Translations under genes and position numbers: made by a program
Assembly (NCBI GenBank): GCA_037305845.1
Contig: CP147778.1
Coordinates: forward strand, 2,528,001-2,592,000
Direction of reading: 5' to 3'
From: Candidatus Freyarchaeum deiterrae
GTDB taxonomy: Archaea; Asgardarchaeota; Jordiarchaeia; Jordiarchaeales; Jordiarchaeaceae
Length of the DNA stretch: 64,000 bases
Part shown: piece after piece, positions 49,874 through 55,060 of the stretch
Layout of the letters: every line of letters starts with the position of its first letter
How positions within the stretch are numbered: position 1 is the stretch's first letter
The notes under the pieces: model-generated
What the model was told of the DNA's origin: nothing
Seen by the model: only the letters and a program-made list of their open reading frames with translations
Database searches by the model: none

Positions 49874-50671
49874 TTGAAATTGGAAAGAACAGAATCCATA
49901 AAAATCACACGCCTAAAGGATGGACAAGCCGAAGAAACCCAAGATAAAGTAGTAAAAGAAAATATCCTAGTAATCAGAGTAAACGGCAAACAGGTCGTAG
50001 GCTTAGTCTATCTTCCCGGCGAGGAAAAAGAACTCGTCTTCGGGCATCTATTCACAACCGGCATAATAGAGAACGTAGACGAAGTGCAAGATTACTCCTA
50101 CTCTAACCTCACTGCAAATCTCAAATTCAAAGAAGGAATTGATGTCGAGGACAGAATTGCAACGTGCGTTACTGGTGGAAGACTGGTAACCACAGCCTGC
50201 GGGCCCCCCGAGTATTTCGTCCAGTTGAAGCAAGGCGTAGGAATACCAAGACTCCAGTCAGAGCTCAAGGTAGAGAGTGAGACAATATTCTCCGCCGCAA
50301 AAACCATGAGTAAAGGCTCAGTGATCTTCCGCGAAACCGGAGGAACCCACGCCGCAGCCCTCTTCACCGAGAAGGGAGATTTGCTGCATCTATCAGAAGA
50401 CGTCGGAAGACACAACGCAGTGGACAAAGTAATAGGAGCATCCATTCTTTCCGGCATCCAACTAGAGAAAACATTCCTGATAAGCACCGGCAGACAAACC
50501 GTGGACATGGTGGTAAAATCGGCCAGAGCCGGCATACCCATAGTCGCATCTCTCTCCGCAGCCACCGACTCCGGAATCTCCGCAGCGGAATCCACCAATA
50601 TCACCCTAATCGGATTCACCCGCGGAACACGAATGAACATATATACCCAACCCCAACGTGTAGTACTATAA
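49874..50671 (+). CDS. fdhD: Formate dehydrogenase accessory sulfurtransferase
   Basis: TTACG, TGGTHAAA, EDVGRHNAVDKVIG, TGR. Confidence 0.93.
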   Translation: MKLERTESIKITRLKDGQAEETQDKVVKENILVIRVNGKQVVGLVYLPGEEKELVFGHLFTTGIIENVDEVQDYSYSNLTANLKFKEGIDVEDRIATCVTGGRLVTTACGPPEYFVQLKQGVGIPRLQSELKVESETIFSAAKTMSKGSVIFRETGGTHAAALFTEKGDLLHLSEDVGRHNAVDKVIGASILSGIQLEKTFLISTGRQTVDMVVKSARAGIPIVASLSAATDSGISAAESTNITLIGFTRGTRMNIYTQPQRVVL

Positions 50672-50725
50672 TCCAAAAAATTGTAATCTCGATAAATCAT
50701 CAACGCCGTCTCGGAGAACATCACT

Positions 50726-51355
50726 ATGATACCTGATTCCGCCGTAGCAATTCTCTGTGGAGGAAAATCAGTAAGAATGGGAACCGACAAAGGACTGGTC
50801 CCCCTCAGCGGCAAACCGATGTTGCTCTATTCCCTAGAAACCTGCGAGGAGGTCTTCTCTGAAATATTCGTCGTCCTAGGCTCAAACCTTAACAAATCCT
50901 ACGAAGAGCTGATAGGCGACAGAGCCAGCATACTAACCGACAAACTTCCGGATATCACTAGCCCCCTAAACGGAGCCTACACAGCCTTTGAGAATTGCAA
51001 ACAAAAATATCTCTACATACTCTCCTGCGACATGCCCTTCGTGAACACAGAGGTACTCAAACTATTGAGAGAAATAATTACCACAGAGGGCGCAGTAGTG
51101 CCCAGATGGCCTAACGGTAACATAGAACCCCTACACGCCGTCTACCGGGCGAAGCCTTCCCTAGAAGCTGCGGAAAAAGCCCTATCAGAAAACCGAATGG
51201 ACATGCTCTCCATGATAAAAAATCTTAGAAGCGTACTATATCTCTCCACCCTTGTGATTGAACAACTGGATCCCAAACTTGAAACATTTTTCAACGTCAA
51301 CACAGTTAACGAACTGAAGAGAGCCGAAGACAAAATCAAAAAACACACCAAATAA
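50726..51355 (+). CDS. mobA: Molybdenum cofactor guanylyltransferase
   Basis: ILCGGKSVRMGTDKG, PLNG, CDMPF, EPLHAVY, FNVNT. Confidence 0.93.
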   Translation: MIPDSAVAILCGGKSVRMGTDKGLVPLSGKPMLLYSLETCEEVFSEIFVVLGSNLNKSYEELIGDRASILTDKLPDITSPLNGAYTAFENCKQKYLYILSCDMPFVNTEVLKLLREIITTEGAVVPRWPNGNIEPLHAVYRAKPSLEAAEKALSENRMDMLSMIKNLRSVLYLSTLVIEQLDPKLETFFNVNTVNELKRAEDKIKKHTK

Positions 51356-51496
51356 ACCAAAAAACACTCCTCACCTCTAAAAAATAATCAGTAGAAAAAT
51401 GTTATGAATTCACGTTAAATATTAGAAGAGGTGTTTAAATTCGAATTTTTATCTCTGTTTACCATAAAGTATTAAATTTGACAAATTAATGTAAAC

Positions 51497-51718
51497 ATGG
51501 TGAATATTTTGATTGAAGTGCGGAAACTAGATAATCAGGGCAGAATAGTTCTTCCGAAGGAGTGGAGAAAAAAGTTCGGCGGTGAAGTGGTAGTCCTAAC
51601 GCTAGAGAATAAAATAGAAATTTTCCCGAGGAAAGGAAACCTGCTGAAGTTCATAGATTTAATCGAGGTTGAAGAACTCAAAGAATGGAGTGAAATGAAG
51701 AAAGAGCGGCTAAGCTAG
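51497..51718 (+). CDS. AbrB/MazE-family antitoxin (orphan)
   Basis: KLDNQGRIVLPKEWRK; no toxin ORF follows. Confidence 0.85.
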   Translation: MVNILIEVRKLDNQGRIVLPKEWRKKFGGEVVVLTLENKIEIFPRKGNLLKFIDLIEVEELKEWSEMKKERLS

Positions 51719-51884
51719 AAATGAAACCGCTAAGCTCCTTTCAACATCTCAATAAAACTTAACTCAACTAAGATAACAATATAAATGCTAAATTGATTGT
51801 TCACTACGGAATTAGGATAGTTTAACGCCGCGTCCATTCAAAAATCGGCATAATTCCTATTTTAAATACTGGTAGTGTTGTGGA

Positions 51885-53007
51885 ATGAAAGATTTAGAAT
51901 TCCTTAATGCTTTCAAGGACCCCAAATTCGCGAGCAAAATCTCCGAAACCATAAAGAGTTTAGCTCCGGAAGAAAGGGTGAAGTTTGTTCATATATGCGG
52001 GACAGCCTAGAAGACTCCCCTAGACCTCGAAACATGAACAAACTATAAGCAAAAACGGCTTGAGAACCCTTCTTCCAGACAACGTCGAAGTAATAGCAGG
52101 CCCAGGATGCCCGGTCTGCGTCACACCATCCATGGTTCTAGATGAAACTATCGAGCTCGCAAGGAGAGGCATCACCATCACGGCTTTCGGCGACCTCCTG
52201 ATGGTCCCCGCAACCCAGACCTCCCTCTACAGTTTAAAGGCAGAAGGAGCCGACATACGAATAGTTTACGGTCCACACGACGCCGTGGAAATCGCCGAAA
52301 AAAACCCCGACAAAGACGTAGTCTTCTGCGCAGTAGGATTCGAAACCACAGCCCCCGGAATAGCATCCGAGATACTCAGAGGCGTCCCCAAAAACTTCAG
52401 TATCATAAGCGCACAAAGACTAATCCCCCCAGCAATGGAGCTCCTCATGGGCTTAGGAGACCTCCAAATAGACGGATTCATCTGCCCAGGACACGTAGCA
52501 ACCATAATAGGAATGAAACCCTTCAGACGCTTCTCAGATGCATACCACATGCCCGCCATCATATCCGGCTTCGAGCCAAACGACGTCCTCCTCACCCTAG
52601 CAATGCTCCTCAAACAGCTAAAAGACGAAGACCCCAAATGCGAAAACGAATACACCCGACTAGTCAAAGAAGAAGGCAACCTCAAGGCCCAAAAAATACT
52701 CGGAGAAGTTTTCGACGTTGCCAACGCCCACTGGCGGGGAATAGGACGAGTACCCGAATCCGGCTACGTGCTCAAAAAAGAATTCGAAGAACACGACGCA
52801 GAAAAAAAGTACGGAATCACAATAAAAAAATCCGTAGACATACACCCCGGATGCAACTGCCACCTAGTCATGATTGGAAGAATATACCCACCGGAATGCA
52901 AACTATTCGGAAACGTGTGCAGACCAGAAAAACCATACGGACCATGCATGGTCTCAAGCGAAGGAACATGCAGAATCTACCACAAATACGGAGCACACTT
53001 CAAATAA
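51885..53007 (+). CDS. hypD: Hydrogenase maturation factor HypD, join(51885..52003,52032..53007), 364 aa after splicing
   Basis: Exon 1 MKDLEF..KFVHICGT; exon 2 HEQTI..GPGCPVC..GFETT..PGHV..GFEP..CMVSSEGTC. Removing 28 nt restores CGTHE. Confidence 0.9.
52004..52031 (+). other. Putative bulge-helix-bulge (BHB) mRNA intron, 28 nt
   Basis: CGGG (51998-52001) / CTCG (52026-52029) 4-bp helix; 3-nt bulges ACA and AAA; flanking helices on both sides; canonical cuts restore the frame. Confidence 0.85.
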
Positions 53008-53097
53008 ATAATATAATAGCGGTCCCATTTCTTCAGAAACTCATGCTCCATAAACAAGAGAAATTATTAGAAAAAAGAAGTTTCCTCTAAAAAGGAA

Positions 53098-53202
53098 GAT
53101 GATGATAATGATAACTGCAATGATGATGATAATGATAATGATGCAGAAAGAGAAGGAGAAAGAAGAGAAGGAGAGAAAAGAGAAGAGGAAGAAGAAGATT
53201 AG
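53098..53202 (+). repeat. Low-complexity GAT/AAT then GAA/GAG tract
   Basis: gatgataatgat... followed by a purine-only run; no credible gene. Confidence 0.55.
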
Positions 53203-53590
53203 AAGAACTTAACTTTATGAAGAAGGAATTTTTTCTCAGGATTAGAAAACCTAGAACAATTCAACGAACGAACGAGAAAAGCTAATCGTAGATTCTTCTA
53301 TTATTTTATTCTCTTGATTTTTGCCAAATCTTTATACGTTTACAAAATGTTAATCAAATTGAGAATTTAAGGATTGGAAGAATGTTAATGAATCACATGA
53401 CGCCTCAGACACATTATATTATAGATGAGAAGTGCTGAAGTAAGATGGAGGGCATCTCCAAGGGGGTAAGCGTCTGTAAGATAATACAGCATATTAGCTT
53501 GTTCCGCAATTTTTTTTTGGATCCTATTATTTTATTAGATAGGAAAATATTTATAGATAGTACTCATACTTCCTTGTTTGAGGTTTTTTT

Positions 53591-53818
53591 ATGCGAACTA
53601 CCGTGAAGGTGACAAGAAGGGGTCAAACCACAATTCCCAAAGAGTTTAGAGAAAAACTCGGAATTAAAGAGGGGGACGAGTTAATGGTAGAGTTCACCAA
53701 AGAAGGTTTGCTCTTTAGAGTTATTCCTAAGCTTGAAGAATTGGCTGGCGCATACTCAAAGTTTGGCAAGGTGGAGGAGATTAAAAAAGAGATAGAAAAG
53801 CTAAGAGAGGAATACTAG
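53591..53818 (+). CDS. AbrB/MazE-family antitoxin
   Basis: KVTRRGQTTIPKEFREKLGIKEGD. Confidence 0.92.
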   Translation: MRTTVKVTRRGQTTIPKEFREKLGIKEGDELMVEFTKEGLLFRVIPKLEELAGAYSKFGKVEEIKKEIEKLREEY

Positions 53819-53819
53819 C

Positions 53820-53935
53820 CTGAATGAAGTATTGGATAGTCGGTTTCTTGTTGAACATTTTTACCCCGTCGAAACAGTAGCACACGACCTAAAAAAATAC
53901 TATGAGAGAATTGTAAAGAACCAATTCACTCTTCT
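53820..53935 (+). pseudogene. Decayed VapC 5' fragment
   Basis: VLDSRFLVEHFY PIN-like start right after the antitoxin, truncated by the convergent gene. Confidence 0.5.
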
Positions 53936-53941
53936 ATACAT

Positions 53942-54841
53942 CTATTTTGTCATTACGGCTGAGAGGTATCCCACTATAGCGTCAGAGCTTCCCCGAATAT
54001 CATAACTGGTCGCGTACTGCAGCTTCATCCCCTTCGTAGCACCCAACTCTTTCGCAGCCACTATCGCGGTAGACACGGGTGCAGAACCACACATAGTAAG
54101 ATCCTTCGTCCGAACCAACCTAAGCAAGCCCTCAGCATCCAAGCTTTCAACCTTACCAATTATTTCCCCATCGGTATCATGAACCCATTTCACAACCTTC
54201 TCCAGCGGCTTCGTCCCAGCAGGAGCATAACCATACATCGCCCCATAGTGAGTAAGATCCGTACTAGCGATTATCACCGCATTCACGTTTTCTTCCTTGA
54301 TTGCCGCCGCCACACCCATCCCAACATCCTGACAAGTTTGCCAATCAGACATACCCAAAGATATCGGAACAATCTTCAAATCCGCATAGAGCTCCTGCAG
54401 GAAGGGAAGCTGAACCTCCAGAGAATGCTCCTCCCTCTGAGCACTAGCATCATCAAGAATTATCCCCGCATTAGTAATTATTGATTTAGCCAACGCGGAA
54501 TCCACAGGAACACTCCCCTCAGGCATAATCCAGTTCCCCTCCACCATAGTCGACGCACCCGGATAACCCATATGACTCGGACCAATCAAAACAAAAGAAT
54601 CCGGCTTACCATCATCAGCAACAGCACTATACGAGTGCGCCGCAACAGGCCCCGAATAATAATAACCCGCATGAGGACAAACACACGCAACAATCCTCCT
54701 CGGACCCTCAGGATTAACCTTCGGAAGACTCTTCGGACCAAACTCGCTAAGATAACATTCCTCAATCATTTTCTTCAAAGCTTGCTTATTACCCGGATAA
54801 AACCCAATCGCAGCAGGACTTCTGTCCCTCAACTCCATCAA
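53942..54841 (-). CDS. MEMO1 family (AmmeMemoRadiSam system protein B)
   Basis: R.PA..GFYP, PHAGYYYSG, GPSH, EHSLEVQLPFLQ, ASTDLTHYG, TMCG. Confidence 0.93.
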   Translation of the reverse strand: MMELRDRSPAAIGFYPGNKQALKKMIEECYLSEFGPKSLPKVNPEGPRRIVACVCPHAGYYYSGPVAAHSYSAVADDGKPDSFVLIGPSHMGYPGASTMVEGNWIMPEGSVPVDSALAKSIITNAGIILDDASAQREEHSLEVQLPFLQELYADLKIVPISLGMSDWQTCQDVGMGVAAAIKEENVNAVIIASTDLTHYGAMYGYAPAGTKPLEKVVKWVHDTDGEIIGKVESLDAEGLLRLVRTKDLTMCGSAPVSTAIVAAKELGATKGMKLQYATSYDIRGSSDAIVGYLSAVMTK

Positions 54842-55060
54842 ACACTCCTACAACATTTTAGAACCATTCTCGAACAGATTAACACCCTTTTTAGGCACAT
54901 TCTCTTTGATATTTCTTCCTACTGAGCACCCTAATACAGTTTTTTAACTATCCTCCTTCACCGAAGGTGTGCAAGGGTTACATATTTTTTAAATAAGCTT
55001 CGCGGGTTAGTCGCCCTTCCATCAGTATACTAAACATCATTTAGCTTTCCTCAAATGGGA

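What the first reader, a model, noticed from the sequence alone, without database searches (positions are those of the whole stretch)
51982..52044. Canonical bulge-helix-bulge intron inside the catalytic CGTH motif of hypD: candidate archaeal mRNA splicing
Seen: hypD begins at ATG 51885, reads ..VHICGT and hits TAG; the motif resumes (HEQTI..GPGCPVC) in another frame 28 nt later. The junction folds as an exact BHB. Outer exon-exon helix: AGUUUGUUC/GAACAAACU plus AUG/CAU. Central 4-bp helix: CGGG/CUCG. Bulges: ACA (52002-52004) and AAA (52030-52032). Inner helix: GCCUAG/CUAGAC (one mismatch). Cutting after the second base of each bulge, the known rule for the archaeal splicing endonuclease EndA, removes 52004-52031 and gives UGC GGG AC|A CAU GAA = CGTHE in a 364-aa HypD. 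Known: BHB introns occur in tRNA and rRNA, and the classic protein-coding case is crenarchaeal cbf5, also at a catalytic motif. I know of none in hypD. Splicing could gate hydrogenase maturation, and gene callers would miss such introns genome-wide.
Basis: partly seen in the sequence, partly recalled or inferred. Interest (0 to 1): 0.93.

Follow-up and report, generated by a model that had tools for sequence, protein, structure and literature searches.

The report
tRNA-type intron inside Asgard hypD
The only gene for the hydrogenase-building protein HypD in this Asgard archaeon is split by a 28-base insert shaped like a tRNA intron, and every sampled genome of its class keeps such an insert at the same spot, so the messenger RNA is very probably cut and rejoined by the tRNA-splicing enzymes, something I found published inside a coding region for only one other archaeal gene.

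Summary
Confirmed. Removing 52004-52031 from the genome's only hypD restores a 364-aa protein reading CGTHE. The insert is in independent assemblies, so it is not an error. All 11 sampled genomes of the class (Jordiarchaeia/Freyarchaeia) and one genome of another Asgard class carry an insert at this site. Lengths are 16, 17, 24 or 28 nt; each breaks the frame or adds a stop, and the 4-bp central helix stays 98% paired. Both exons are under purifying selection. The Gly codon in the helix is the only one of 57 invariant four-fold residues with a frozen third base. Two EndA subunits and RtcB are encoded. About ten other protein genes in this genome carry similar inserts (cbf5, kae1, pcm, porA, tyrS, mvhD, rtcB). 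Best reading (0.92): a BHB pre-mRNA intron spliced by EndA and RtcB. Nothing supports a regulatory gate. This scan noted the same hypD intron earlier in at least five other genomes. In print I found only crenarchaeal cbf5 (coding) and one Haloferax 5' UTR.

The parts
51885..52003 (+). hypD exon 1 (Met1 to the second base of Thr40; holds Cys38)
   Evidence: pN/pS about 0.1 against congeners
52004..52031 (+). 28-nt BHB intron with an in-frame TAG at 52008-52010
52032..53007 (+). hypD exon 2 (third base of Thr40 to the stop)
   Evidence: Pfam HypD positions 39-351 on the part from 52060, E 3e-125
51998..52001 (+). central helix, exon arm (CGGG: third base of Cys38 plus the Gly39 codon)
   Evidence: TGC GGG in 12/12 intron-bearing genes; synonymous-site control
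52002..52004 (+). 5' bulge ACA; predicted cut after 52003
   Evidence: sequence; cut rule from PMC2738675
52005..52025 (+). inner hairpin (GCCUAG / CUAGAC arms, 9-nt loop)
   Evidence: closing G-C pair in 12/12
52026..52029 (+). central helix, intron arm (CUCG; CCCG, CCUG or ACCG in relatives)
   Evidence: 97.9% of cells paired
52030..52032 (+). 3' bulge AAA; predicted cut after 52031
51995..51997 (+). outer exon-exon helix, 5' arm (AUG), pairs with CAU 52033-52035
   Evidence: UG/CA pairs in 12/12; both arms are fixed by the protein, so this is weak evidence
51982..51990 (+). extended exon-exon helix, 5' arm, pairs with 52036-52044
   Evidence: strong in this genus, looser in the other family
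52060..53007 (+). 315-aa truncated ORF from TTG that gene callers report; lacks Cys38

Best explanation
The insert is an archaeal bulge-helix-bulge intron in a pre-mRNA. Shown: the DNA has it, it breaks the frame, and its removal restores the family motif. Inferred: in the hypD transcript the exon bases CGGG pair with the intron's 3' end to form a 4-bp helix between two 3-nt bulges; the two-subunit tRNA-splicing endonuclease EndA cuts after the second base of each bulge; RtcB joins the exons; the spliced mRNA gives full-length HypD with its essential Cys38 and the following His41. [quoted passage not shown] It is one of about ten such introns detected in protein genes of this genome and is most likely constitutive, not a switch.
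For: Same site in 11/11 genomes of the class and in G016 of another class. Lengths 16, 17, 24, 28 nt; all frame-breaking or stop-bearing; removal restores CGTHE in 12/12. Central helix 97.9% paired, whole motif 93% against 24-50% for slid registers. Exon codons TGC GGG in 12/12, against 33/81 and 15/81 in intron-less loci; among 11 intron-bearing genes only 1 of 57 invariant four-fold residues has an invariant codon, and it is this Gly. pN/pS about 0.1 in both exons within the genus. Only hypD in a one-contig genome that encodes NiFe hydrogenase large subunits. Two EndA paralogues, one with the Tyr/His/Lys residues in the family motifs (motif positions from my own knowledge), and RtcB. E. coli Cys41, the counterpart of Cys38, is essential for maturation (PMC6886295). 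Genome scan: 12 frame-restoring BHB candidates against 0 and 0 for cuts shifted by one base.
Against: The exact BHB is 4.4 kcal/mol above the predicted best fold. True covariation is slight (3 pairs with a double change; 21-83 of 500 shuffles as high), because the exon arms are fixed by the protein. The genomes are kin, so the counts are not independent. The 12/0/0 filter was picked after looking; a looser one gives 20/6/11.
Confidence: 0.92

Rival explanations
1. The mRNA stays intact and the ribosome skips the insert (programmed bypass or frameshift).
For: A stop codon inside a hairpin follows two codons after the break in this genus, which recalls phage T4 gene 60 bypassing (own knowledge).
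Against: Lengths fall in all three classes modulo 3, so no single shift works. Take-off and landing triplets do not match in any of 12 genes. Several relatives have no stop until 5-9 codons later. Bypassing does not explain the exon-intron helix with two 3-nt bulges.
Confidence: 0.03
2. hypD is translated without splicing from a downstream start, or as two pieces, and works without the N-terminal motif.
For: A 315-aa ORF from TTG 52060 covers Pfam positions 39-351; databases list such forms.
Against: Called starts differ from genome to genome (about 296-340 aa), so no start is conserved. The form lacks the essential Cys (PMC6886295). Exon 1 is under purifying selection right up to the break.
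Confidence: 0.03
3. The gene is a pseudogene broken by a small DNA insertion, or the insert is an assembly error.
For: No transcript evidence in hand.
Against: Identical insert in independent assemblies. Both exons intact and under selection across two families whose HypD proteins are 65-69% identical. No other hypD. No target-site duplication.
Confidence: 0.01
4. It is an intron, and its splicing is regulated so as to gate NiFe hydrogenase maturation (an addition to the best explanation, not an alternative to it).
For: Kept at one site across a class; a hydrogenase subunit gene (mvhD) has a similar 31-nt insert; the outer helix has a competing register.
Against: Like inserts lie in unrelated genes (cbf5, kae1, pcm, porA, tyrS). 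Loop sequence and length are not conserved, so there is no sign of a sensor. Retention is explained if precise intron loss is rare.
Confidence: 0.12

Closest known systems
BHB intron in cbf5 pre-mRNA of Desulfurococcales and Sulfolobales (Yokobori et al. 2009, PMC2738675, building on Watanabe et al. 2002)
   Same: Short insert in a coding region at a functionally essential motif; BHB at the borders; cuts after the second bulge base; variable interior; some lengths keep the frame; host has a two-subunit EndA.
   Different: Different gene and phylum (Asgard); splicing shown by cDNA for cbf5 but not here; this genome has about ten such genes, not one; the hypD motif is canonical, whereas the cbf5 ones are mostly relaxed.
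BHB intron in the 5' UTR of Haloferax volcanii HVO_1309 (PMC7714728)
   Same: mRNA substrate of the splicing endonuclease.
   Different: Non-coding position; does not break a reading frame.
tRNA introns of Freyarchaeia/Jordiarchaeia and Atabeyarchaeia (PMC11291895; bioRxiv 10.64898/2026.10.13.758758)
   Same: Same lineage, same motif and enzyme; repeated gains reported.
   Different: Those papers treat tRNA genes only; my term searches of their main texts found no mRNA intron.
Eukaryotic HAC1/XBP1 non-spliceosomal mRNA splicing (from my own knowledge; named in PMC13149111)
   Same: A protein endonuclease and a tRNA ligase remove a short frame-shifting mRNA intron.
   Different: Cut by IRE1 at stem-loops, not by EndA at a BHB; regulated, which is not shown here.

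Membership tests
Archaeal BHB (EndA-spliced) introns | 4-bp central helix between exon and intron strands | tested here: met
   4/4 pairs here and in 11 of 12 genomes; 3/4 in G016
Archaeal BHB (EndA-spliced) introns | Two 3-nt bulges on opposite strands, flanked by outer and inner helices | tested here: met
   Pairs next to both bulges form in 12/12; not the minimum-energy fold in this genome
Archaeal BHB (EndA-spliced) introns | Cuts after the second base of each bulge give the functional product | tested here: met
   CGTHE and an open frame restored in 12/12
Archaeal BHB (EndA-spliced) introns | Splicing endonuclease and ligase encoded by the host | tested here: met
   Two PF01974 genes and RtcB PF01139
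Archaeal BHB (EndA-spliced) introns | Spliced RNA or excised intron circle observed | tested here: inconclusive
Archaeal BHB (EndA-spliced) introns | Cleavage by EndA in vitro | not testable with these tools
   Bench experiment
HypD (PF01924) | Match to the family profile, with GPGCPVC and GFETT motifs | tested here: met
   E 3e-125; motifs in the ORF
HypD (PF01924) | N-terminal CGxH motif with the essential Cys | tested here: met
   Only after splicing; the same VCGTHE stands at Cys38 of the solved HypD 2Z1D
Programmed translational bypass (T4 gene 60 type) | Matched take-off and landing codons | tested here: not met
   0 of 12 match
Group I or II self-splicing introns | Ribozyme core of hundreds of bases | tested here: not met
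   Insert is 16-28 nt; no Rfam match in 50000-55000

The most novel reading that the evidence does not exclude
Jordiarchaeia, among the closest prokaryotic relatives of eukaryotes, routinely splice the mRNAs of many core genes (hydrogenase maturation, central metabolism, translation, and the RNA ligase itself) with the tRNA-splicing enzymes, and gain such introns lineage by lineage, so that dozens of their 'truncated' or 'frameshifted' genes are really intact split genes.
Probability: 0.8. Interest if true: 0.88.

Novelty: new variant of a known kind. Interest (0 to 1): 0.8.

Why it matters
The papers I could search know one archaeal coding region with a spliced intron (cbf5). A conserved intron in hypD, with about ten more in the same genome, would make endonuclease-based mRNA splicing a routine part of gene expression in an Asgard lineage. 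That bears on how introns spread before the spliceosome and on the ancestry of ligase-dependent mRNA splicing in eukaryotes. It also means that public proteins of this class are mis-annotated: every HypD listed lacks its essential motif, which can mislead metabolic reconstructions. The claim is cheap to test with existing metatranscriptomes and recombinant EndA.

Tried and rejected
An exact search for the spliced hypD junction in JGI contigs found nothing. A search for spliced cDNA products in the protein collection found none for hypD (12 cluster members were not listed) or for porA: the 392-aa porA entries were mis-called starts on intron-bearing DNA. Loose ab initio BHB scans showed no enrichment over the shifted null; only filters that demand a good inner hairpin did. 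Two scan candidates (genome 2152285 and 1152688) look false by Pfam; 735531 was not checked. The first scan timed out. Whether G016 gained the intron on its own is open: the tree needs two changes, but one clade is not rejected (p-AU 0.44). Tocchini-Valentini 2011 was not held. The promoter scan was uninformative.

Full report
Observation. The window lies in a one-contig genome of 3,576,204 bases. Its closest hypD relatives are labelled Jordarchaeia, Freyarchaeota and Ca. Jordarchaeum madagascariense. The size matches the 3.58-Mbp complete genome of Ca. Freyarchaeum deiterrae in PMC11291895; that identification is my inference. hypD starts at 51885, stops at TAG after CGTA, and resumes in another frame. 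Removing 52004-52031 gives 364 aa with FVHICGTHEQTISK. The exact motif is not the lowest-energy fold (-12.0 against -16.4 kcal/mol) and the region's folding z-score is only -1.79, so the case has to rest on comparison.

Not an artefact. The insert is letter for letter in two independent Logan assemblies, and variants stand in three JGI contigs. There is no other hypD in the genome, which encodes NiFe hydrogenase large subunits.

Conservation. All 11 genomes of the class that the tool returned carry an insert at the same base: 28 nt in the six of this genus, 16 or 17 nt in the five of the other family. One genome of another Asgard class (G016) has 24 nt with an in-frame TGA. In all 12, cutting after the second base of each bulge restores CGTHE. 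The central helix is paired in 97.9% of cells and the whole motif in 93%, against 24-50% for slid registers; double-sided changes are few, since the exon arms code for fixed residues. The other hypD loci that I aligned, from Asgard, other archaea and bacteria, have no insert there. A pattern search of 400 Asgard genomes showed no further BHB-shaped case by eye, but the pattern can miss divergent flanks and I did not check each hit. A tree needs two changes for the trait, and a single origin is not rejected.

Selection. Both exons evolve under purifying selection: pN 0.06-0.08 against pS 0.65-0.76 for the last 30 codons of exon 1 within the genus, and similar values for exon 2. The exon arm of the helix is frozen at synonymous sites. 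All 12 genes read TGC GGG, whereas 81 intron-less loci (a few duplicated) use TGC 33 times and GGG 15 times, and GGG is the rarest Gly codon in this genome. As an internal control, across 11 intron-bearing genes only 1 of 57 invariant four-fold residues has an invariant codon, and it is this Gly; of 45 two-fold residues 3 do, one being this Cys. That is the signature of an RNA-level constraint at the predicted helix.

Machinery. The genome has two EndA paralogues. One keeps the Tyr, His and Lys of the catalytic motifs and the other lacks the His (motif positions from my own knowledge), which fits the two-subunit type that the Asgard tRNA preprint reports as common. RtcB is present. The lineage is known for very many non-canonical tRNA introns.

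Why the message must be repaired. The unspliced frame yields a 41-residue peptide. The ORF that callers report starts at TTG 52060 and lacks Cys38. The E. coli counterpart Cys41 is essential for hydrogenase maturation (PMC6886295). Every public HypD of this class that I could list lacks the CGxH motif and starts at a different place. Ribosomal bypass fails its test: no matched take-off and landing codons in 12 genes, and lengths in all three classes modulo 3.

One of many. A genome scan for BHB motifs whose removal joins two coding frames gave 9 against 1 and 0 for cuts shifted by one base under a strict motif, and 12 against 0 and 0 when a good inner hairpin was required (filter chosen after looking, a looser one gives 20, 6, 11). 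Pfam places the two halves of kae1 and pcm on adjacent positions of one model, and shows cbf5, porA and tyrS cut near the start of theirs. The cbf5 insert falls after the first base of the catalytic Asp codon, as in Crenarchaeota. The porA insert is 28 nt here and 33 nt in four congeners with a 4/4 helix, and the other family has long open frames there. mvhD (31 nt, 4/4 helix) and rtcB (29 nt, relaxed) have inserts too. Earlier notes of this scan pointed to most of these and report the hypD intron in five other genomes; they are leads, and the counts above are my own.

What is missing. I saw no spliced RNA. Two earlier notes claim RNA-derived contigs without the insert for other genes of relatives; I could not check them.

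Comparison. The closest known case is the cbf5 pre-mRNA intron of Crenarchaeota (PMC2738675); PMC7714728 calls it the only other mRNA example and adds a 5' UTR intron in Haloferax. Ten searches of the held library found no report of mRNA introns in Asgard archaea or in hypD (among them); the library lacks most subscription journals. The mechanism is known; the gene, the phylum and the number of genes are new. Verdict: a real intron with probability about 0.92, regulation unsupported (about 0.12), new variant of a known kind, interest 0.8.

Noticed in passing
L140 (genome 1483415-1483446, minus strand): 32-nt BHB insert in cbf5, after the first base of the catalytic Asp codon, the same register as the crenarchaeal cbf5 intron.
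   Followed up: partly
L141 (genome 1589354-1589381, minus strand): 28-nt BHB insert in porA (YP/ITP); 33 nt in four congeners; long open frames in the other family, so probably gained in this genus.
   Followed up: yes
L143 (2203715-2203742), L145 (2244134-2244165), L146 (1873137-1873166): BHB inserts in kae1, pcm and tyrS; Pfam halves adjacent for kae1 and pcm.
   Followed up: partly
L142 (2636158-2636190), L144 (1876899-1876927), L147 (2285374-2285405): BHB inserts in an aconitase-family gene (33 nt, in frame with a stop), an adenosylhomocysteinase-like gene and an endoQ-like gene (last name from motif memory; no Pfam hit).
   Followed up: partly
L166 (genome 1144985-1145015) and L151 (1452796-1452824), minus strand: 31-nt insert in mvhD (GIFC/NWCSY; 4/4 central helix) and 29-nt relaxed insert in rtcB (PD/AHQGY); both were missed by my scan, so the count is a lower bound.
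   Followed up: partly
L015 (G016 contig 67): 24-nt hypD insert with a near-perfect 9-bp palindrome and an in-frame TGA at the same site, in another Asgard class whose four other genomes have intact hypD; independent gain, transfer or ancient origin is undecided.
   Followed up: partly
whole genome: ARAGORN finds only 17 tRNA genes, several of them doubtful, in line with heavily interrupted tRNA genes in this lineage.
   Followed up: no
window 51497-51718, 53591-53818: hypD stands apart from other hyp genes (a hypC-like start lies near genome 1797645) and is flanked by small AbrB/MazE-type genes.
   Followed up: no
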